A stretch of 37,235 nt of DNA, from sequence record NC_013594.1. One strand, 5' to 3'. The notes below the pieces were generated by a model, which had not been told where the DNA came from, made no database searches, and saw only the letters and a list, made by a program, of their open reading frames with translations. Numbering within the stretch: position 1 is the stretch's first letter; each line of letters starts with the position of its first letter. The position numbers and the translations under genes were made by a program. Shown here in pieces: positions 1-27,744 of the stretch. Source of the stretch: Escherichia phage D108.

Positions 1-175
1 TGTATTGATTCACTTGAAGTACGAAAAAAACCGGGAGGACATTGGATTATTCGGTATTTGGCGGGATTAGATTTAGTGGGGCTTGCAAGCCTGTAGGACA
101 GATTTTAGCCGTTACATCTTGAAACGCGAAAGATTGTTGGAAACAGCTTTTGATTCATTAAAGACACGAAAAGCA
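1..175. repeat. Left end (attL) with three transposase-binding sites: L1 ~1-30, L2 ~114-135, L3 ~151-175
   Basis: Each site carries the ACGAAA(A/G)/GCGAAAG core: tgtattgattcacttgaagtacgaaaaaaa; tcttgaaacgcgaaagattg; ttgattcattaaagacacgaaaagc. Spacing resembles Mu L1-L3. Confidence 0.75.
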
Positions 176-339
176 ATTACTTCACGCATCATTTCAAGTA
201 CAGCTTCAAAAATGCTTCAAAAACGGTAACAACCAGGCTTTCAGCAAGTGATGTGTGTCAAAAACAATCATCACTGTTTGGGTATCTTACATATGTAATT
301 ACCTGGAGTGAAGTTTATGTCTTAGCTATTACCTGGTTG

Positions 340-864
340 TTATACAGCTTTCTTTACATCGTTTTCTCTTACAGGGAAATTATGTTCTTTGCCTTCATAC
401 TGAGACAAAATCTCTCTCACTTTTTCCGGTGGTAATGCCTGAAGAGTTTGCAGGGTTTTCTGTTGCTCCACAGTAATCCCTAATGCCTCTAATGCCTTAT
501 CTTTACTGACAATTGTAGGCATAAGTCCTTTAATCCCTGCTACACGAATGATCTCCACTGCTGCGGCCTGCTCATCTGGTGTTAAGAAACTCATTGCATA
601 AATTAGCCTCTCATCAACTGTATGGACGATTGATGTATGCACTGGTTTATCAGAAAGTGAGGCTCCTTTAATGGCCCTGCGTGTTTCTTCTGGCAGACTG
701 TTGATGTGATACTCATTAGCGACACCTTTCCCACCGTGACGCTGACGTTTTACCCAATCTTCCGCCACAGCTTTCCTGGTAATGTTAGTCGCCAACTTTG
801 GTACACCAGGCATCCCTTCCAGCTCTTTCGCATTAAACCATTCTTTGATTTCAAAAGACATCAT
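340..864 (-). CDS. c: Immunity repressor c (174 aa), Mu/D108 repressor family
   Basis: Leftward ORF at the left end, divergent from ner. N-terminus ([26 protein letters not shown]...W..RQ..G.KGV) is clearly paralogous to the N-terminal DNA-binding domain of the transposase encoded at 1279. Confidence 0.85.
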   Translation of the reverse strand: MMSFEIKEWFNAKELEGMPGVPKLATNITRKAVAEDWVKRQRHGGKGVANEYHINSLPEETRRAIKGASLSDKPVHTSIVHTVDERLIYAMSFLTPDEQAAAVEIIRVAGIKGLMPTIVSKDKALEALGITVEQQKTLQTLQALPPEKVREILSQYEGKEHNFPVRENDVKKAV

Positions 865-1049
865 TTAAAATCCTAGTGATTTCAATAGAGACAAAATAAA
901 TTCATATAAAAATCATGCTGTTATATGAAATCATGATAAATCCTTTCAAATCACTATTGATTTAAAAATGATTCCACACTACATTGCACGATATGCCGTG
1001 AGCTACTTTATAGCGTAGCTCACGGGGGAATCTGAAAGGATTACATGAA
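865..1049. promoter_or_regulatory. Early operator/promoter region (Pe/Pc with repressor operators; transposition enhancer expected here)
   Basis: AT-rich 185-bp divergent intergenic region between c and ner with repeated TGATTTCA/TGAAATCA-type elements (878-885, 926-933, 947-963). Position corresponds to Mu O1-O3. Individual sites not resolved. Confidence 0.6.
996..1025. promoter_or_regulatory. Perfect 11-bp inverted repeat (ccgtgagctac-N8-gtagctcacgg) in the ner leader
   Basis: Read directly from the sequence; ends 25 bp upstream of the ner start. Candidate Ner or repressor binding site, or leader RNA hairpin. Confidence 0.5.
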
Positions 1050-1271
1050 ATGCATATGAATAAAAGAACTAACCGCCAAGATTGGCACAGAGCTGACATC
1101 GTTGCAGAGCTACGAAAACGCAATATGTCACTAGCTGAATTGGGAAGATCTAATCATCTTTCGTCTTCAACATTAAAAAATGCTTTGGATAAGAGATATC
1201 CGAAAGCGGAGAAAATCATTGCAGATGCACTGGGAATGACACCGCAAGATATTTGGCCGTCTCGATACTAG
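1050..1271 (+). CDS. ner: Ner, Nlp/Ner-family DNA-binding early regulator (73 aa)
   Basis: Small HTH protein with [13 protein letters not shown]...[13 protein letters not shown], typical of Ner/Nlp; first rightward gene after the operator; SD AAAGGA upstream. Confidence 0.85.
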
Positions 1272-1278
1272 GTGCGCT

Positions 1279-3267
1279 ATGAAAGAATGGTATACAGCAA
1301 AAGAGTTGCTCGGTTTGGCAGGTTTACCAAAGCAAGCCACTAACATTACACGTAAGGCACAAAGAGAAGGCTGGGAGTTCAGGCAGGTTGCAGGGACTAA
1401 AGGTGTATCATTTGAATTCAATATCAAATCATTCCCTGTCGCATTACGTGCTGAAATTCTGTTGCAACAAGGGAGAATTGAAACAAGTCAGGGGTATTTT
1501 GAAATCGCCCGCCCCACGCTGGAAGCCCATGATTATGATCGTGAGGCACTGTGGAGCAAATGGGATAACGCCAGCGATTCCCAGCGCAGACTTGCTGAAA
1601 AATGGTTGCCTGCGGTTCAGGCTGCAGACGAAATGCTGAACCAGGGGATTTCAACGAAAACGGCTTTTGCGACCGTTGCAGGGCATTACCAGGTCAGCGC
1701 ATCCACTTTGCGGGACAAGTATTACCAGGTACAGAAGTTTGCGAAGCCTGACTGGGCGGCTGCACTTGTTGATGGACGTGGAGCATCCCGTCGCAATGTT
1801 CACAAAAGTGAATTTGACGAGGATGCCTGGCAGTTTCTGATTGCAGATTATCTGCGACCGGAAAAACCCGCCTTCCGCAAATGTTATGAGCGTCTGGAAC
1901 TGGCAGCCCGCGAGCATGGCTGGAGTATTCCCTCCCGTGCCACGGCCTTTCGCCGGATTCAGCAACTGGACGAGGCAATGGTTGTTGCCTGTCGTGAAGG
2001 TGAACATGCACTGATGCATCTGATACCGGCACAGCAGCGAACTGTGGAACACCTGGACGCCATGCAGTGGATCAACGGCGACGGTTATCTGCATAACGTC
2101 TTTGTACGCTGGTTTAACGGTGATGTGATCCGTCCGAAAACATGGTTCTGGCAGGATGTGAAAACCCGAAAAATTCTGGGCTGGCGCTGCGATGTGAGCG
2201 AGAACATTGATTCAATTCGCCTCTCGTTCATGGATGTTGTGACTCGCTACGGTATCCCGGAGGATTTTCACATCACCATTGATAACACCCGTGGTGCTGC
2301 GAATAAATGGCTGACGGGAGGCGCGCCCAATCGCTACCGCTTTAAGGTAAAAGAGGACGATCCAAAAGGACTGTTTTTACTGATGGGGGCGAAAATGCAC
2401 TGGACAAGCGTTGTTGCCGGTAAAGGCTGGGGCCAGGCAAAACCTGTTGAACGTGCTTTCGGTGTTGGTGGGCTTGAGGAATACGTTGATAAGCATCCGG
2501 CACTGGCTGGCGCATATACGGGGCCTAATCCGCAGGCAAAACCTGATAACTATGGCGACCGCGCTGTTGATGCAGAGCTGTTTCTGAAAACCCTTGCCGA
2601 AGGTGTGGCGATGTTCAATGCCAGAACAGGCCGTGAAACAGAAATGTGCGGAGGCAAACTTTCGTTTGATGACGTTTTTGAGCGTGAATACGCCAGAACG
2701 ATTGTGCGTAAGCCTACCGAAGAGCAAAAACGGATGCTGTTACTGCCTGCCGAGGCAGTGAACGTTTCACGTAAAGGCGAGTTCGCGCTTAAAGTTGGTG
2801 GCTCCCTTAAAGGTGCGAAAAACGTTTATTACAACATGGCGTTAATGAATGCCGGAGTAAAAAAAGTTGTGGTCAGATTTGATCCACAGCAGTTACACAG
2901 CACGGTTTATTGCTACACCCTTGACGGTCGGTTTATCTGTGAAGCGGAATGTCTGGCACCTGTTGCGTTTAATGATGCTGCGGCAGGCCGTGAATATCGC
3001 CGTCGCCAGAAACAACTGAAATCTGCGACGAAAGCAGCAATTAAGGCACAGAAACAAATGGATGCACTGGAAGTGGCAGAGCTGCTGCCGCAGATAGCCG
3101 AACCTGAAGCACCAGAATCACGAATTGTCGGCATTTTCCGGCCTTCCGGTAATACGGAACGAGTGAAGAATCAGGAGCGTGATGATGAATACGAAACTGA
3201 GCGTGATGAATATCTGAATCATTCGCTGGATATTCTGGAACAGAACAGACGTAAAAAAGCCATTTAA
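1279..3267 (+). CDS. A: DDE transposase MuA (662 aa)
   Basis: Mu-repressor-like N-terminal DNA-binding domain; DDE catalytic context present ([30 protein letters not shown]); size and position match MuA. Confidence 0.95.
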
Positions 3268-21003: not shown

Positions 21004-21551
21004 TGCTGGAAGAAACCGAAGCCGCACTGCTGGCGCGCGTTCGTGAGTTGTTTGGGGCAACCCTGCGGCAGGTGGAACCCCTTACCGGCACATGGACTAA
21101 CGAGGATGTGCACCGTCTCTTTCTGGCCCCTCCATCGGTATTTCTGGCATGGATGGGCTGTGGTGAGGGGCGTACGCGTCGGGAAGTTGAAAGTCGCTGG
21201 GCATTTTTTGTCGTGGCGGAGTTGCTGAACGGGGAACCGGTAAACCGGCCCGGTATTTATCAGATTGTGGAGCGACTGATTGCCGGTGTTAACGGTCAGA
21301 CGTTTGGCCCGACCACCGGGATGAGACTGACGCAGGTCAGAAATCTTTGTGACGACAACCGTATCAATGCCGGTGTGGTGCTTTACGGCGTTCTGTTCAG
21401 TGGCACTACCCCGCTGCCGTCCGTGGTGGACATGGATTCGCTGGATGATTACGAGCGTCACTGGCAGACCTGGAAATTCCCGGACGAAACCCCGGAATTT
21501 GCCGCACATATCAATGTGAATCAGGAAAAGGATCATGATGCTGAAAATTAA
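21003..21551 (+). CDS. Tail completion / tail terminator-like protein (Mu K-like), 182 aa
   Basis: Synteny; directly upstream of the sheath-tube module. Confidence 0.6.
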   Translation: MLEETEAALLARVRELFGATLRQVEPLTGTWTNEDVHRLFLAPPSVFLAWMGCGEGRTRREVESRWAFFVVAELLNGEPVNRPGIYQIVERLIAGVNGQTFGPTTGMRLTQVRNLCDDNRINAGVVLYGVLFSGTTPLPSVVDMDSLDDYERHWQTWKFPDETPEFAAHINVNQEKDHDAEN

Positions 21552-21741
21552 ACCCGCAGCGGGAAAAGCCATCCGTGACCCGCTCACGATGAAATTACTG
21601 GCTCCGGAGGGAGAAGAAAAGCCCCATAACAGTTTCTGGATACGTCGCCTTGCAGCCGGTGATGTGGTTGAAGTCGGGAGCACCGAAAACACGGCGGATG
21701 ATACCGACGCTGCGCCGAAAAAACGGAGTAAATCGAAATGA
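21535..21741 (+). CDS. Small hypothetical protein (68 aa)
   Basis: ORF overlapping both neighbours in the late operon. Confidence 0.5.
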
Positions 21742-23225
21742 GCGATATTTCATTTAACGCGATCCCGTCAGATGTTCGCGTTCCTCTGACGTATATCGAA
21801 TTTGATAACAGCAATGCCGTCAGCGGAACACCGGCTCCCCGCCAGCGCGTGCTGATGTTCGGGCAAAGCGGAAGTAAAGCCAGTGCCGCACCGAACGTGC
21901 CTGTCCGTATCCGTTCCGGCTCACAGGCCAGTGCGGCGTTTGGTCAGGGTTCCATGTTGGCACTGATGGCAGATGCATTCCTGAACGCTAACCGCGTGGC
22001 GGAGCTGTGGTGTATCCCGCAGGGAAACGGCACCGGTAATGCTGCTGTCGGTGAAATCTCACTGTCAGGAACGGCAGGCGAAAACGGCTCGCTTGTGACC
22101 TATATTGCCGGTCAGCGACTGGCGGTATCCGTCGCAGCAGGTACAAAAGGGGCTGCGCTGGCTGACCTGCTGGTTGCCCGAATCAAAGGCCAGCCGGATT
22201 TACCGGTGACGGCAGAAGTTCGCGCAGACAGCGGAGATGATGACACCCATGCAGATGTGGTTCTGAGTGCAAAATTTACGGGTGCATTATCTGCCGTGGA
22301 TGTGCGCTGGAACTATTACGCGGGTGAAACCACCCCTTACGGGATTATCACGGCATTCAAAGCCGCCTCCGGTAAAAATGGCAACCCGGATATCAGCGCA
22401 AGTATCGCGGGAATGGGCGATCTGCAATACAAATATATTGTGATGCCCTATACCGATGAACCGAACCTGAATCTGTTACGCACTGAATTGCAGGAACGCT
22501 GGGGACCGGTCAATCAGGCTGATGGCTTTGCTGTGACAGTGCTGTCCGGCACGTATGGGGATATTTCCACGTTTGGTGTCAGTCGTAATGATCATCTGAT
22601 CTCCTGTATGGGGATTGCCGGTGCACCGGAACCGTCATATCTGTACGCCGCCACACTGTGTGCCGTTGCCAGCCAGGCGCTTTCCATCGACCCGGCGCGT
22701 CCTCTCCAGACGCTGACGTTGCCCGGAAGAATGCCGCCTGCGGTGGGGGATCGTTTCACCTGGTCAGAACGTAATGCGCTGCTGTTTGACGGCATCTCCA
22801 CGTTTAACGTGAATGATGGTGGTGAAATGCAGATTGAACGCATGATCACGATGTACCGCACAAACAAGTACGGTGACAGTGATCCGTCTTATCTGAACGT
22901 GAATACCATCGCCACGCTGAGTTATCTGCGTTATTCACTGCGAACCCGCATCACGCAGAAATTCCCGAACTACAAGCTGGCAAGTGATGGCACCCGCTTT
23001 GCCACCGGTCAGGCCGTGGTGACGCCATCCGTGATCAAAACGGAGCTGCTGGCACTGTTTGAAGAATGGGAAAACGCCGGACTGGTCGAGGATTTCGACA
23101 CGTTCAAAGAGGAGCTGTATGTGGCACGTAACAAGGACGACAAAGACCGTCTTGATGTGCTTTGCGGCCCGAATCTGATTAACCAGTTCCGCATTTTCGC
23201 GGCACAAGTTCAGTTCATTCTGTAA
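21738..23225 (+). CDS. L: Contractile tail sheath protein L, 495 aa
   Basis: Size and position immediately upstream of the tube gene. Confidence 0.9.
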
Positions 23226-23234
23226 GGAGCATTT

Positions 23235-23591
23235 ATGGCTGGAAATCAGCGTCAGGGGGTGGCGTTCATCCGTGTCAATGGCATGGAGCTTGAAACGATG
23301 GAAGGTGCCTCCTTCACGCCTTCCGGTATCACCCGTGAAGAAGTGACCGGCTCGCGGGTTTATGGCTGGAAAGGTAAACCACGTGCCGCAAAGCTGGAAT
23401 GCAAAATTCCGGGCGGTGGTGATATCGGTCTGGATGAAATCATCGGCTGGGAAAACATCACGGCAGAGTTTCAGGCAGACACCGGTGAAACCTGGATGAT
23501 GGCGAATGCCTGGCAGGCAGATGAACCGAAAAACGACGGCGGCGAAATTTCGCTGGTACTGATGGCAAAACAAAGCAAACGCATTGCATAA
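23235..23591 (+). CDS. M: Tail tube protein M, 118 aa
   Basis: Small protein after the sheath gene. Confidence 0.85.
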   Translation: MAGNQRQGVAFIRVNGMELETMEGASFTPSGITREEVTGSRVYGWKGKPRAAKLECKIPGGGDIGLDEIIGWENITAEFQADTGETWMMANAWQADEPKNDGGEISLVLMAKQSKRIA

Positions 23592-23600
23592 GGGGAAACA

Positions 23601-24035
23601 ATGGACGAAATGAATTTAGGTCCTGAAGCACAGGAACTGCATGACAGCATTGTGGCAGAAATTCAGTCCGGCGTGCTGAAACTGAAAGACGGCCTGCCGT
23701 TCGGCACCGGTGACGAGACTGAAATGCAGTATGACGTGACGCTGCGTGAACTGACCGCAGGCGATCTGATTGATGCCCAGGCGGCTGCTGAAAAGCTGGT
23801 AATGAGCAAGGAAGGCCCGGTGCTGGTCAGTTCCCCGTCCCGGATGGGACTGGAAATGCTGCGCCGACAGATTGCCAGCGTGGGTTGCATCAAAGGCCCG
23901 TTATCGCTGGCGCTGATGCGCAAGCTGTCTGTTGATGACTTCCAGCGTCTGTCGCTGGCTACAGAAATGTACGACATGGCTGTGGCGGCATCGCTGACAC
24001 AAGAACGGGGGCGAGTGGCTGCGGTGCCGGAATGA
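23601..24035 (+). CDS. Tail assembly chaperone (144 aa)
   Basis: Acidic protein between tube and tape measure. Confidence 0.75.
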   Translation: MDEMNLGPEAQELHDSIVAEIQSGVLKLKDGLPFGTGDETEMQYDVTLRELTAGDLIDAQAAAEKLVMSKEGPVLVSSPSRMGLEMLRRQIASVGCIKGPLSLALMRKLSVDDFQRLSLATEMYDMAVAASLTQERGRVAAVPE

Positions 24036-24162
24036 TATTGAGAAAGCGGCGACAGCGATTGGCGTTATTCTGAAAAGTGGCCCGGAATGGGCCTTATCCC
24101 TCCCGCTGTCCCGCTTTTTCCGGCACTGCCAGCAGGCTAAAACCCTCTCTCAATATCACCGT
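23601..24162 (+). CDS. Candidate frameshift-extended chaperone isoform (slip on GGGGG at 24007-24011 into the +1/-2 frame)
   Basis: The frame at +1 relative to the chaperone is open from 23998 to 24162 with no canonical start codon and ends 17 bp before the tape measure ATG; a G5 run lies in the 38-nt overlap. Confidence 0.4.
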
Positions 24163-24179
24163 TAAATCAGGAAATCTCT

Positions 24180-26252
24180 ATGACCGGGAAACGCTTAAAG
24201 GCGTCTGTCATTATTGATCTTAATGGCAATCTTTCCCGGCGTTCCCGCCAGTATTCGAACCAGATAAACGCCCTGTCCCGTAGCGGACAAAGTTCCCTTC
24301 GTGCCCTGCGTATGGAGGTTGTGCGCGTTTCTGGTGCCATTGACAGAATGGGTTCACTGTCAACCCGTACATTCCGAATGCTGTCAGCCGGGGCGCTGGG
24401 TATCGCTGGTGTGGGTTACACCGCCAATAAACTGTTTATTGGTGCAGCCGCCCAGCGTGAGCAGCAAATTATCGCCATGAACTCGCTGTATCACGGCGAT
24501 AAGGTCAGAGCGCAGGCCATGATGGCCTGGGCAAAGCAGAACGCGAAGGACACCACGTGGGGGCTGAGTGGTGTTCTGGATGAGATCCGTTCGTCGAAAG
24601 GCTTCGGCATGACGGATGAACAGACGAAACAGTTCATCACCATGTTGCAGGATCAGGGGGCCATGCACGGCTGGGATTTACCCACTGCACAGGGTGCCTC
24701 ACTGCAACTGAAACAGATGTTTGCCCGCCAGCAAATCACGGCGGCGGATGCCAACCTGCTGACCGGTTACGGTATTAACGTTTACCAGACGCTGGCGGAT
24801 GCACTGGGTAAAGACGTTAAGGATATCCGCAAACAAGGTAAAAAAGGCAAGCTGGGTCTGAAATCCATTCTGACGGTATTCAGAACGCTGTCAGAACAGT
24901 CAAAAGGTGCACAGGCCAGTGCGATGAACTCCTGGGACGGGATGTTCGCCCAGATGGAAGCTAACCTGCTTGAATTTCGCATAAAGGTGGCAAACAGCGG
25001 CCCCTTTGAAGAAATCAAGAACGAGATGCGCCGGGTGCTTAACTGGCACGACATGGCGGATAAATCCGGGGAACTTGACGCACTGGCAGAAAACATTGGT
25101 CAGAAATTTCTGACCACGTTCAGAACGGTAAAAATCGCGGCGCAGGAATTATGGCGCTGGCTGAAACCGGGTAAAGATGCGCTGGCATGGGTTGACCAGA
25201 ATATTGTCAGCCTGAAAAAACTGGCTGCTGTTCTGGTGTCTGTCTGGCTTGCCAATAAAGCCCTGAGAGCAGGCTGGGCCGTGGCAAAACCCTCATGGCA
25301 GGTTGCCAGTTATCCGTTTAAAACCGGGCGTCGTATGTGGCGCTGGATGCGAAACCGCAAACGTGGGCAGGCAGGTCTGCCGGTCCCGGATGCCATGACG
25401 TCTGAGACGCTGTTGCAGGGTATCGGCATTCAGCGTGTGTTTGTCATCAACTGGCCCCGTGGATTTGGTGGCTACGGGAGTGGCGGCGGTCGTCGCGGAC
25501 GGAGCGGCGGAAGAATGGCCCCGCTGTTACCCCGCCAGCCGTTATTGCTGTCCGGGCCACAGCCGCTGGCATTACCTGCACCACGCCCTGTACTGGCATT
25601 ACCCCCACCCGGCGTACCGGTAACAGCACGGCCTGCACCATTACCTTTACCCGGTAAATCCGGTCTTCTGAGCAGGCTTGCAGGCAGTGCTGCCGGGCAA
25701 CTGGTTACGGGAACGGTCGGAAAGCTGGCTGATGCCGGGCGTGCTGTTGGCGGGTGGTTTTCCGGTATCGGAAACAAACTTGCAGGCAGTGCGATCGGTC
25801 GGGTTGTGACAAAAGGTGCCGGGGCGCTGGGCTGGATGGGGAAAGGTGCCGGTCGTGCGTTGTCACGTCTGGGTGGCCCGGTAATGGGGGCACTCCAGCT
25901 TGCCCCCGTCCTGATGGATGAGCAGGCGTCACCCCATGAAAAAGCAGGCGCAATTGGCAGTACAGCCGGTGCATGGCTCGGCGGTGCCGTTGGCAGCCTT
26001 GCCGGACCGCTGGGTACGGTTGCCGGTGCCACGCTGGGCAGTGTCGCCGGGGAGTATCTGGGCGGTTTTGTAACCGACCTGTATCAGAAATGGACGGCCC
26101 CGGATAAGGAACCGCAGGAACAAAAAGTGAATGCGGAAGCCTCGCTGCGCGTCGAACTTGGCGAGGGGTTACGTCTGACCAGTTCCCGCGTCACCGAGGA
26201 CGGTATGGGGCTGAATATTTACGCGGGCGATAACTACATTACAGGCTGGTAA
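24180..26252 (+). CDS. Tail tape measure protein (690 aa)
   Basis: Largest tail gene, after chaperone; Pro-rich low-complexity segment and C-terminal Gly-zipper-like repeats. Confidence 0.85.
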
Positions 26253-26256
26253 AACC

Positions 26257-27744
26257 ATGTTTGAAGATGCTTTAAATGCCGTTAATGCTGTCCGGGATAA
26301 AATCAGCGGTGGTAAGAAAACAACCGGCAAAGGCACGTTTCGTAACGTGCCGTTTCTCGTCATCGAGGAGCAAAAACAGGCTGGCGGACGTCGCCTGGTT
26401 AAACGCGAGTACCCGTTACGTGATACCGGCGGCGTCAATGACCTGGGGAAAAAGCTTCGCTCCCGTACATTCAGCGCCTGCATTCTGAACAGCAACGCAG
26501 AAACAGCCAGAGATGAAGCGGGTGCGCTGATGGATGCTCTTGATGCTCCGGGTAGCGGTGAGCTGGTACATCCTGATTTCGGCACTGTGGACGTCATGGT
26601 GGATTCATGGGAATGCCGCACTAAAGCGGATGAACTGAATTATTACGCGTTCACCGTTACCGTTTATCCGTCGTTGCAGGATACTGCCCCGGACTCAGAG
26701 ACAGACACCAGTGCAGCCGTACCGGCACAGGCCGTTGCTGTAACCGGTTCTCTGGGAGATACGCTGTCCTCTGTCTGGCAGACCGTAAAAGATGGCACTG
26801 CGGCGGCAACCGCCGTGATGGAAGCTGTAACCGGTGTCATCGATGATATCAGTGATGCGGTGGACAATCTGGGGGTTACGCAGACTGTCAGCGGTCTGAT
26901 GGGATCGCTTTCTGCGATGAAAGGCTCTGTGACCAGCCTGATTAACCAGCCTGCCATGCTGGCCTCCTCGCTGATGGGGGCGCTGTCCGGCGTTTCATCG
27001 TTATGCGATACCCGGACAGCATTTTCCACATGGAACCGTCTGGCGCAGCGATTCGAACGTCGCCATGCCGCCACCGCAGGCAGACAGGGGACAATCACAA
27101 CCTCGTACAACAGTCCGGTTGCAGAAAAAAATATTGCCACACTGAACTACGTCATGCTGGCAGCAGCACAGACATACCGGGCGGAGGCAGCAAGCCAGGC
27201 ACTGACTGCGGCACTGGATTTCAGTCGCCGGATGGATAATGCCGCCCGTGCACCTGTACTGGATGCCCCGTCCACCACAACCGGCACAGCCAGCGGGGCC
27301 AGCAGCACATCCGCTACCGTCACACAGGGACAGTTACAGTTAACTGCCATAACCCCGGACGGCGGCTTTTCACAGGTATCCTTTTCAGACAGTGGTACAG
27401 CCACGCCCCCGGTATTTGAAAGTGTGTCCGATATCGGAAAAACAGCCGCCATGCTGGGGGCAGCGCTGGATACCGTCATTCTGACGGCATCTGAGCAGGG
27501 CTTTTCGACAGACAGCTTTCAGCTTACGCAACTGCGTCTGCTGGTTGTTGCCGACCTGGAAAAACGCGGGCTGCAACTGGCAGGCAGTGAAACGCACCGC
27601 CTGCCGGAGACGATGCCTGCAATGGTGGCTCTGTACCGTTACACAGGAAACAGCCGGAACTGGCAACGGCTGGCCCGCAGGAACGGTATCAGCAACCCGT
27701 TGTTTGTTCCCGGTGGTGTCAGTATTGAGGTGATTAATGAGTAA
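26257..27744 (+). CDS. N: DNA circularization protein N (495 aa)
   Basis: Position after tape measure, as for Mu N. Confidence 0.75.

What the first reader, a model, noticed from the sequence alone, without database searches (positions are those of the whole stretch)
23998..24162. Candidate programmed -2/+1 frameshift extending the tail assembly chaperone
The chaperone ORF stops at 24035 and the tape measure starts at 24180. The 144-bp gap is covered by an open frame (23998-24162) that is +1 relative to the chaperone, has no ATG/GTG/TTG start, and overlaps the chaperone by 38 nt containing a GGGGG run (24007-24011). A -2 (or +1) slip of tRNA-Gly on that run would append ...GEWLRCRNDIEKAATAIGVILKSGPEWALSLPLSRFFRHCQQAKTLSQYHR. 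A frameshifted chaperone isoform upstream of the tape measure is a conserved feature of tailed phages, and I recall (unverified) that a -2 shift was reported for Mu.
Basis: partly seen in the sequence, partly recalled or inferred. Interest (0 to 1): 0.5.

Follow-up and report, generated by a model that had tools for sequence, protein, structure and literature searches.

The report
Known phage Mu tail-chaperone −2 frameshift
This is the programmed −2 ribosomal frameshift that phage Mu and its relatives use to make a longer form of their tail assembly chaperone; it was shown experimentally in Mu in 2004, so it is real but not new.

Summary
The chaperone ORF is 23601-24035. A start-less +1 frame is open from 23998 to 24162 and stops at 24163-24165. 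The G5 run is at 24007-24011 and the tape measure ATG at 24180.

The window is a complete Mu-like genome, 97.7% identical to Mu. From 23961 to 24095, which includes the shift site, it is base-for-base identical to Mu. GenBank AF083977.1 annotates that stretch of Mu as a "verified -2 translational frameshift" (Xu, Hendrix, Duda 2004). Reviews call it the first natural −2 frameshift, on GG_GGG_CGA, at about 2% efficiency.

My comparison of 80 distinct relatives, down to 41% protein identity, supports this:
- All 80 keep GGGGCGA, and 75 keep CGG_GGG_CGA in the same frame.
- The +1 frame is open across and past the gp41 stop in the 78 relatives where the two frames are still separate.
- Among the 24 closer relatives, the extension evolves as protein: pN/pS is 0.30, against 1.1 and 2.7 in the other frames.

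Three smaller results may be new:
- The RNA just after the site is predicted to be unusually structured. In the Mu clade this is a 13-bp long-range helix.
- GenBank and UniProt disagree on the junction residue (Arg versus Gly).
- A few assemblies carry fused variants with four Gs.

Verdict: already known, low interest.

The parts
23235..23591 (+). Tail tube gene (Mu gene M / gp40 homologue), directly upstream of the chaperone gene
   Evidence: 118-aa ORF. Pfam PF10618 Tail_tube, E=3e-35. Annotated as tail tube in Mu and relatives.
23601..24035 (+). Zero-frame tail assembly chaperone ORF (Mu gp41 homologue, the 'G-like' product, 144 aa)
   Evidence: Pfam PF23746 Gp41_Mu, E=9e-35. PHROG 508 'tail assembly chaperone', E=9e-49. 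Corresponds to Mu_41 in AF083977.1.
24006..24014 (+). Shift site C_GG_GGG_CGA. The zero-frame codons are CGG(R136) GGG(G137) CGA(R138); the slippery octamer GG_GGG_CGA is 24007-24014.
   Evidence: Identical to Mu. The published site is 'GG GGG CGA' (PMC3458567). GGGGCGA is present in all 80 distinct relatives, and CGG_GGG_CGA in the same frame in 75.
23998..24165 (+). Start-less +1 frame, open from 23998. The part actually translated is 24013-24162 (tandem −2 model) or 24010-24162 (P-site-only model). Stop TAA at 24163-24165. It encodes the 'T-like' C-terminal extension (E)WLRCRNDIEKAATAIGVILKSGPEWALSLPLSRFFRHCQQAKTLSQYHR.
   Evidence: Conserved as protein in relatives. pN/pS 0.30, no stops in 24 sequences. 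Matches PHROG 12783, E=2e-29.
23601..24165 (+). Frameshift fusion product FS-gp41 (188 aa), join(23601..24014,24013..24165) under the tandem −2 model
   Evidence: Maps onto Mu_56 / UIW09302.1, record 23552..24116 with an offset of +49, annotated as a verified −2 frameshift. Its sequence has junction ERG-R-EW.
24018..24030 (+). 5' arm of a predicted long-range RNA helix, starting 3 nt after the A-site CGA codon (inferred, not shown to function)
   Evidence: Minimum-energy fold of 24012-24170 is −61.4 kcal/mol, z=−3.5. The 13-bp helix is 98% paired across 21 relatives, with 2 compensatory pairs.
24120..24133 (+). 3' arm of the predicted long-range helix (pairs with 24018-24030)
   Evidence: The 130-nt window starting at 24015 has z=−4.27, second lowest of 200 windows across 21015-27015.
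24180..26252 (+). Tape measure protein gene (Mu gp42 homologue). It starts 14 nt after the stop of the extension frame.
   Evidence: 690-aa ORF. Pfam PF20155 TMP_3, E=7e-16. Annotated as tape measure in Mu.

Best explanation
This is the Mu-type programmed −2 ribosomal frameshift in the tail assembly chaperone gene.

Most ribosomes translate 23601-24035 and release the 144-aa chaperone gp41. A small fraction behave differently when GGG (24009-24011) is in the P site and CGA (24012-24014) is in the A site. They slip two nucleotides backwards on GG_GGG_CGA and continue in the +1 frame to TAA 24163-24165. The result is a 188-aa fusion, FS-gp41. In vivo the fraction in Mu is reported as about 2%.

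In the published tandem model, tRNA-Gly re-pairs perfectly with GGG at 24007-24009. tRNA-Arg (anticodon ICG) re-pairs with GGC at 24010-12 at two of three positions. The junction then reads ...ERG-R-EWLRC.

By analogy with lambda gpG and gpGT, both proteins bind the tape measure protein, and the extension recruits the tail tube subunit. The fixed ratio of the two forms is what tail assembly needs, and neither protein ends up in the virion.

What is shown: the anatomy, identity to the Mu site, family-wide conservation and protein-coding selection on the extension. What is taken from the literature: the −2 direction and the efficiency. What is inferred: the chaperone roles in Mu-like phages and any role for the downstream RNA structure.
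For: 1. Identity with the proven case. The window is a Muvirus, 97.7% identical to Mu and 98.2% to Mu_3F6. Window 23961-24095, which includes the site, is identical to Mu. AF083977.1 annotates the same span as Mu_56, 'verified -2 translational frameshift in PMID 15469818'.

2. Literature.
- PMC3498833 calls it the only known natural −2 case at the time, at about 2.2%.
- PMC3458567 describes tandem −2 slippage on GG GGG CGA.
- A 10-mer Mu site alone gave 14% shifting into the −2/+1 frame in PURExpress (bioRxiv 10.1101/2025.10.02.679949).

3. Gene context. The order is sheath, tube, chaperone, tape measure.

4. Comparison.
- 80 of 80 distinct relatives keep GGGGCGA in the overlap, and 75 keep CGG_GGG_CGA with CGA as a zero-frame codon. 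This holds at 41-45% protein identity in Vibrio, Aliivibrio, Aeromonas and Bilophila.
- Flanking positions vary at 1.3-1.9 bits.
- In the 78 relatives with separate frames, the +1 frame is open through the gp41 stop and runs on to within about 15 nt of, or a little into, the next long ORF.

5. The extension is under protein-level selection. pN/pS is 0.30 against 1.11 and 2.67, and there are 0 stops against 41 and 75. It aligns across the family.

6. Direction. The wobble base of codon 136 (24008) is G in every relative, even where the residue changes to Gln, Ser or Gly. A −2 re-pairing needs that base; a +1 slip does not.
Against: - Nothing was measured for this particular genome.
- Sequence alone cannot prove direction.
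- The 2025 reporter assay cannot tell −2 from +1.
- GenBank (junction Arg) and UniProt P0DJY4 (junction Gly) disagree on which tRNAs slip. I could not read the primary paper.
- Four relatives, two distinct sequences, have only G4 with separate frames kept (TCG_GGG_CGA and CAG_GGG_CGA). There a −2 re-pairing would be imperfect.
- The preprint says it is the first to quantify the site. That sits awkwardly with the 2.2% figure cited elsewhere.
Confidence: 0.93

Rival explanations
1. A +1 frameshift rather than −2. P-site tRNA-Gly on GGG would slide forward one base onto GGC while the ribosome waits for the poorly decoded CGA codon. The result would be a 187-aa product with junction ...ERG-EWLRC.
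For: The target frame is the same. CGA is invariant in all relatives, which fits a slow or 'hungry' A-site codon. Reporter assays cannot separate +1 from −2. The G4 relatives TCG_GGG_CGA and CAG_GGG_CGA cannot re-pair perfectly at −2.
Against: The Mu record and several reviews state that −2 was verified experimentally. The two Gs upstream of the GGG codon are conserved: the wobble G of codon 136 is invariant even when the amino acid changes, and a +1 slip does not need them. Re-pairing of tRNA-Gly on GGC is poorer than on GGG.
Confidence: 0.04
2. A −2 slip by the P-site tRNA-Gly alone, with an empty A site, followed by decoding of GGC as Gly. The junction would be ...ERG-G-EWLRC. It is a sub-variant of the main explanation.
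For: UniProt P0DJY4 carries exactly this junction. GGG to GGG re-pairing is perfect. A slow CGA codon would leave the A site empty for longer.
Against: GenBank UIW09302.1, whose note cites the primary experiment, has Arg at the junction. PMC3458567 describes tandem slippage that includes the A-site tRNA-Arg.
Confidence: 0.2
3. The gap holds an independent small gene, as in the phage D108 record, which calls a 48-aa 'gp42' (MRCRND...). It would be translated from its own non-canonical start or by reinitiation after the chaperone stop, with no frameshift.
For: Databases hold such stand-alone calls (P0043 for D108, also P0045 and P0048). PHROG 12783, 'unknown function', is built from them. An in-frame ATT lies at 24037, 2 nt after the chaperone stop.
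Against: The frame has no ATG, GTG or TTG. The codon at 24037 is ATT, CTT, GTC, GTA or ATC in relatives, so no start is conserved. No Shine-Dalgarno sequence is evident. The overlap always contains the invariant slippery motif. The fusion was demonstrated in Mu.
Confidence: 0.02
4. The frame change happens at the nucleic-acid level. Either RNA polymerase slips on the G5 run, or the phage population varies in G-run length, producing some G4 templates or transcripts that encode the fusion directly.
For: Fused G4 versions exist in a few assemblies: L121 from Logan run ERR1010218, Kluyvera L010/L047 and Erwinia tracheiphila L012.
Against: By my own knowledge of known transcriptional slippage sites, five Gs is far shorter than the runs involved, typically 7-9 or more A or T. 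In IMG/VR the G4 version of the Mu sequence is found 0 times against 19 for G5. The L010 copy also has a second indel, and L012 is a polished long-read assembly, so decay or sequencing error is likely. G4 would give the 187-aa, +1-type product, not the reported −2 one. The purified PURExpress system shifts on the 10-mer, although T7 transcription is part of that system.
Confidence: 0.01

Closest known systems
Phage Mu gp41 / FS-gp41 (Mu_41 / Mu_56), −2 programmed frameshift (Xu, Hendrix & Duda 2004, PMID 15469818)
   Same: Same gene, position and slippery octamer, with identical nucleotides around the site (23961-24095). The extension is 51 aa with the same sequence, and both differences from Mu within it are synonymous third-position changes.
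   Different: Essentially nothing. The host genome is a different Muvirus isolate, 97.7% identical to Mu and divergent in the left 1.4 kb. gp41 differs from Mu gp41 at 3 residues.
Lambda gpG / gpGT tail assembly chaperones (−1 frameshift on G_GGA_AAG)
   Same: Same position between the tail tube/major tail gene and the tape measure gene. There is a short product plus a rare C-terminally extended product, and the second frame lacks a start and ends just before the tape measure gene. The ratio of the two forms is presumed to matter for the same reason (PMC5009743).
   Different: The direction is −1 rather than −2, and the slippery sequence differs. No sequence similarity was detected: Pfam places this protein in Gp41_Mu / Phage_TAC_7. 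The tail here is contractile rather than non-contractile.
P2 gpE / gpE+E' (contractile-tail phage chaperone frameshift)
   Same: A myovirus-type tail module. Pfam PF10109 'Phage tail assembly chaperone proteins, E, or 41 or 14' links the two families, though here only at a sub-threshold score of 24.1 against a cut-off of 25.
   Different: P2 uses a −1 shift, with 2- to 3-fold higher efficiency than lambda.
Arterivirus (PRRSV) nsp2TF −2 frameshift
   Same: One of the few other natural −2 frameshifts.
   Different: It occurs on eukaryotic ribosomes, depends on a viral protein acting in trans, has about 20% efficiency, and involves an unrelated gene and slippery sequence.

Membership tests
Tailed-phage G/GT-type tail assembly chaperone frameshift (Xu et al. 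2004) | The gene pair lies directly between the tail tube/major tail gene and the tape measure gene | tested here: met
   Tube 23235-23591 (PF10618), chaperone 23601-24035, tape measure 24180-26252 (PF20155).
Tailed-phage G/GT-type tail assembly chaperone frameshift (Xu et al. 2004) | The second frame overlaps the end of the first, has no start codon of its own, and ends at or just before the tape measure start | tested here: met
   The +1 frame is open 23998-24162 with no ATG, GTG or TTG. Its stop lies 14 nt before the tape measure ATG. The 78 distinct relatives with separate frames have the same layout.
Tailed-phage G/GT-type tail assembly chaperone frameshift (Xu et al. 2004) | A slippery sequence lies inside the overlap and is conserved among relatives | tested here: met
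   GG_GGG_CGA at 24007-24014. GGGGCGA is present in 80 of 80 distinct loci, and CGG_GGG_CGA in 75 of 80.
Tailed-phage G/GT-type tail assembly chaperone frameshift (Xu et al. 2004) | The extension is a real, selected protein segment | tested here: met
   pN/pS 0.30 in the extension frame against 1.11 and 2.67 in the others. Diversity by codon position is 0.21 / 0.09 / 0.38. There are 0 stops in 24 sequences. The peptides align across the family.
Tailed-phage G/GT-type tail assembly chaperone frameshift (Xu et al. 2004) | Both the short and the fused protein are made, at a low fused-to-short ratio, and both are required for tail assembly | not testable with these tools
   Production of the fused product is reported for Mu itself (GenBank note), and an estimate of about 2.2% is quoted in PMC3498833. 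The requirement for both products was shown for lambda, not for Mu-like phages as far as I could read.
Mu-type −2 frameshift specifically | Sequence identity with the experimentally verified Mu site and product | tested here: met
   Alignment A1 shows the window identical to Mu across 23961-24095. The predicted fusion has the same extension as UIW09302.1 and P0DJY4.
Mu-type −2 frameshift specifically | The shift is −2 (one extra residue at the junction), not +1 | not testable with these tools
   Taken from the literature. The invariant wobble G of codon 136 gives indirect support.
Gp41_Mu protein family (Pfam PF23746) | The zero-frame product scores above the curated cut-off | tested here: met
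   119.4 bits against a cut-off of 27, E=9e-35, covering the whole profile.
RF2-type +1 frameshift | A Shine-Dalgarno-like stimulator about 3 nt upstream, and a stop or slow codon in the A site with good +1 re-pairing of the P-site tRNA | tested here: inconclusive
   No conserved upstream purine-rich element: positions −7 to −36 vary at 1.2-1.9 bits, except one wobble G. CGA is conserved, but GGG to GGC re-pairing is imperfect.
Transcriptional slippage | A long homopolymer, usually 7-9 or more A or T | tested here: not met
   The run is only five Gs. One relative has G7 (L011).

The most novel reading that the evidence does not exclude
The RNA immediately 3' of the shift site may form a conserved, unusually stable structure that is part of the −2 signal. 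In the Mu clade this is a 13-bp long-range helix, 24018-24030 with 24120-24133, closing a domain of about 115 nt and starting only 3 nt after the A-site codon. More distant clades have different hairpins starting 5-6 nt after the codon. The short spacer could favour a two-base rather than a one-base backward slip, as the mRNA-tension model predicts. The same data show that the −2 site GG_GGG_CGA is not a Mu oddity: it is invariant in a chaperone family spread across Enterobacterales, Vibrionaceae, Aeromonas and Bilophila.
Probability: 0.25. Interest if true: 0.4.

Novelty: already known. Interest (0 to 1): 0.12.

Why it matters
It confirms that a reader working from sequence alone can recover a textbook recoding signal. 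It also flags an annotation gap. Of the seven complete relatives whose annotation I examined, only the re-annotated Mu record, AF083977.1, carries the frameshift product. The others annotate only the 144-aa ORF. D108 calls the extension a separate 48-aa hypothetical gene, and PHROGs files it as 'unknown function'.

The site is biologically important because the ratio of short to extended chaperone is thought to control tail assembly around the tape measure, and because natural −2 shifts are rare. None of that is new.

The parts that could be worth a small follow-up:
- the family-wide invariance of GG_GGG_CGA;
- the predicted downstream structure with a very short spacer;
- the unresolved Arg-versus-Gly junction residue in public databases.

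Tried and rejected
- **Primary paper.** Xu et al. 2004 (PMID 15469818) and the 2013 lambda G/GT paper (PMC3762263) are not held. The direction and the tandem model rest on secondary sources and the GenBank note.
- **Literature search by sequence.** Searching for GGGGGCGA returned only unrelated EGR1-site papers.
- **Pfam and solved structures.** Pfam finds nothing for the extension alone. The PDB sequence search finds no relative of the fusion; the best hit has E=0.71 and is irrelevant.
- **A short local stimulatory hairpin.** The 64 nt after the site fold no better than shuffles (z=0.02). Across 31 relatives, 50-nt windows average z=−0.85 against −0.49 and −0.20 for controls. Only the 130-nt scale stands out.
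- **An upstream Shine-Dalgarno-like stimulator.** No conserved element was found.
- **The −1 frame.** It extends only 12 aa past the stop in the window and 1-24 aa in most relatives, with no conserved length (90 aa only in the Bilophila-type clade, and 350 aa in the fused locus L012, where it is the tape-measure frame). Rejected.
- **In-window statistics.** Counts of the G run and of the 9-mer are not significant on their own.

Full report
**1. What is in the sequence**

- A 144-aa ORF runs from ATG 23601 to TGA 24033-24035.
- The next long ORF (690 aa) starts at ATG 24180, leaving a 144-nt gap.
- The frame +1 to the first ORF is open from 23998 to 24162 and ends at TAA 24163-24165. A TGA at 23995-23997 closes it upstream.
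- That frame has no ATG, GTG or TTG.
- It overlaps the first ORF by 38 nt, and the overlap holds GGGGG at 24007-24011.
- The zero-frame codons at the run are CGG (24006-8), GGG (24009-11) and CGA (24012-14).

**2. What the genes are**

Pfam identifies each gene in the module:
- 21738-23225 is a tail sheath (495 aa).
- 23235-23591 is a tail tube (PF10618).
- 23601-24035 belongs to Gp41_Mu (PF23746, E=9e-35). It also gives a sub-threshold hit to Phage_TAC_7, the family of P2 gpE.
- 24180-26252 is a tape measure protein (PF20155).

PHROGs calls the 144-aa protein a tail assembly chaperone. It places the extension in PHROG 12783, 'unknown function'.

**3. Where the window comes from**

The window begins with a Mu-type left end (the recognition is from my own knowledge). 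Over 25 kb it is 98.2% identical to Escherichia virus Mu_3F6 and 97.7% to Mu, and only the left 1.4 kb differs from Mu. It is therefore a complete Muvirus genome, probably D108 or a very close relative. That last step is inference.

**4. The feature is already described**

GenBank AF083977.1 (Mu) carries two coding features here. Mu_41 is the 144-aa chaperone. With an offset of 49 nt, that is window 23601..24165.

An alignment of the window with Mu, SfMu, PhiR68_1, Mu_3F6 and three Yersinia Muviruses shows the window identical to Mu from 23961 to 24095. The only two differences from Mu inside the extension are third-position synonymous changes in the +1 frame.

The literature agrees:
- PMC5009743 lists phage Mu among the users of −2 frameshifting.
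- PMC3498833 calls it, in 2012, the only known natural programmed −2 case and gives about 2.2% efficiency.
- PMC3458567 gives the mechanism as tandem −2 slippage on GG GGG CGA. In the −2 frame the A-site tRNA-Arg (3'GCI5') makes a better post-slippage contact than in the −1 frame.
- A 2025 preprint measured 14% shifting into the −2/+1 frame for a 10-mer Mu site in PURExpress. Its reporter cannot tell −2 from +1.

**5. Independent comparative test**

I collected 101 related loci from phage records, GTDB genomes and IMG/VR. In each I located the chaperone frame by tblastn. They collapse to 80 distinct regions, with chaperone identity from 100% down to 41%. Hosts include Kluyvera, Erwinia, Edwardsiella, Pluralibacter, Vibrio, Aliivibrio, Aeromonas and Bilophila.

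- **Motif.** Of the 80, 75 contain C-GGGGG-CGA with CGA as a zero-frame codon inside the 0/+1 overlap. One has G7. Two have G4 with the two frames kept separate (TCG_GGG_CGA and CAG_GGG_CGA). Two are G4 variants in which the two frames are fused.
- **Conservation profile.** GGGGCGA is present in every case. Positions on either side vary at 1.3-1.9 bits.
- **Frame layout.** In the 78 distinct regions that keep separate frames, the +1 frame is open through the chaperone stop. It extends mostly 31-47 codons (21-24 in two short-extension lineages) and ends close to the start of the next long ORF. The −1 frame has no conserved extension.
- **Extension peptides.** They align across the family, with G-[ED] at the start and an LP[LI]R-x-L-like motif near the end.
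- **Selection.** In the non-overlapping part, 24 sequences give pN/pS 0.30 in the extension frame, against 1.11 and 2.67 in the other frames. Diversity by codon position is 0.21 / 0.09 / 0.38. Stops number 0, against 41 and 75.

**6. Direction of the shift**

Sequence cannot prove direction, but one observation bears on it. The wobble base of codon 136 (24008) is G in all relatives, even where the residue is Gln (CAG), Ser (TCG) or Gly. A −2 re-pairing of tRNA-Gly uses that base; a +1 slip does not. This fits the published −2 result.

**7. An unresolved detail**

Exact-sequence look-up shows that GenBank UIW09302.1 has the junction ...TQERG-R-EWLRC, which is tandem slippage with Arg retained. 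UniProt P0DJY4 has ...TQERG-G-EWLRC, which is a P-site slip followed by GGC decoded as Gly.

I favour the GenBank and tandem version, because its note cites the experiment and PMC3458567 describes tandem slippage. I could not read the primary paper.

**8. How it most likely works**

With GGG in the P site and CGA in the A site, a few percent of ribosomes move two bases 5'. Decoding then resumes at GAG 24013 and gives the 188-aa FS-gp41.

The functional roles are inferred from lambda. There, gpG and the G part of gpGT coat the tape measure protein. The T part binds the major tail subunit and starts its polymerisation. The ratio is about 30:1, and neither protein is in the virion (PMC5009743).

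**9. A possible extra element**

The RNA from 24012 to 24170 folds to −61.4 kcal/mol, with z=−3.5 against dinucleotide shuffles. The fold is an extended stem whose outer 13-bp helix pairs 24018-24030 with 24120-24133.

- **Pairing across relatives.** In 21 relatives (52-100% chaperone identity) the helix is paired in 98% of cells, with two compensatory pairs and several G-U to A-U or G-C changes. Sliding the partner by 1-3 columns drops pairing to 29-48%.
- **Caveat on coding.** Both arms encode conserved residues (WL[RQ]CR and R[HY]C), so coding constraint may explain much of this.
- **Rank within the window.** The 130-nt window starting at 24015 has z=−4.27. It is second lowest of 200 windows between 21015 and 27015 and has the lowest energy among the windows printed.
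- **Across the family.** Across 31 representatives, the 130 nt after CGA average z=−2.33, against −0.48 (inside the chaperone gene) and −0.39 (inside the tape measure gene). A paired Wilcoxon test on 20 clade representatives gives p about 1e-4, but the lineages are not fully independent.
- **Distant clades.** Two distant clades show different helices at the same place. One is a 7-bp GCAGCAG/CUGCUGC stem 6 nt after CGA. The other is a 5-bp hairpin 5 nt after CGA.
- **Relation to the tension model.** A stem so close to the A site fits the mRNA-tension idea, in which shorter spacers favour −2 over −1 (PMC3458567).
- **Evidence against necessity.** The 10-mer alone shifts well in vitro, so the structure may not be needed, or may serve another purpose.

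I rate this a hypothesis, not a finding.

**10. Rivals**

- A +1 slip is not excluded by sequence, but the literature and the conserved upstream Gs argue against it.
- An independent small gene is how D108 annotates the extension (P0043). It lacks any conserved start: the in-frame codon just after the chaperone stop is ATT, CTT, GTC, GTA or ATC in relatives.
- Transcriptional slippage or DNA-level variation in G-run length is unlikely for five Gs. G4 fused copies are rare, with 0 against 19 in IMG/VR. They occur in assemblies where error or decay is plausible.

**11. Verdict**

The feature is the known Mu −2 tail-chaperone frameshift in a close relative of Mu. It is already known and of low interest. 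The minor leads worth keeping are the junction residue, the downstream structure and the missing annotation in most relatives.

Noticed in passing
window 24009-24015 (junction); proteins P0041 and P0042: Public databases disagree on the junction residue of the Mu frameshift product. GenBank UIW09302.1 reads ...ERG-R-EWLRC and UniProt P0DJY4 reads ...ERG-G-EWLRC.
   Followed up: partly
window 24018-24030 with 24120-24133; inner stems 24042-24058 with 24103-24119; hairpin 24079-24093: A predicted extended RNA structure of about 115 nt starts 3 nt after the A-site codon, and its outer helix shows two compensatory pairs among 21 relatives. The 130 nt after the shift site are more structured than control windows across 31 relatives, with mean z −2.33 against about −0.4.
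   Followed up: partly
L121 1900-1915 (Logan ERR1010218); L010/L047 (Kluyvera genomosp. 3); L012 (Erwinia tracheiphila); P0002, P0006, P0047: A few assemblies carry four Gs instead of five, which fuses the chaperone and the extension into one ORF of 187-199 aa. L010 also has a second indel in the extension. These are probably sequencing errors or decaying prophages. The G4 form is absent from IMG/VR, against 19 G5 matches.
   Followed up: partly
L013/L056 (Edwardsiella anguillarum and an IMG/VR relative) and L054/L055, about 30 nt before the chaperone stop: These relatives keep separate frames but have only four Gs (TCG_GGG_CGA and CAG_GGG_CGA). A −2 re-pairing of tRNA-Gly would have a first-position mismatch, so they may shift less efficiently or by +1.
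   Followed up: no
window 24019-24165; protein P0043; PHROG 12783: The D108 record and some E. coli genomes annotate the extension as a stand-alone 48-aa hypothetical protein (MRCRND...), which implies a non-canonical start. PHROGs holds this as a family of unknown function. Of the seven complete relatives whose annotation I examined, only AF083977.1 carries the frameshift product.
   Followed up: yes
window 1-1466: The window starts with a Mu-type left end. Its first ~1.4 kb (the query matches Mu only from 1467) has no near match in Mu but matches Mu_3F6. That fits a D108-like immunity region; the link to D108 is from my own knowledge.
   Followed up: no
window 24077-24217 (+), 46-aa GTG ORF: A small ORF in the third frame spans the end of the extension and the tape measure start. 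It is not in the extension frame, and that frame is full of stops in relatives (41-75 stops across 24 sequences), so it is probably spurious.
   Followed up: partly
bioRxiv 10.1101/2025.10.02.679949 versus PMC3498833: The 2025 preprint says its 14% in vitro value is the first quantification of the Mu site. A 2012 paper already cites an estimate of about 2.2%.
   Followed up: no
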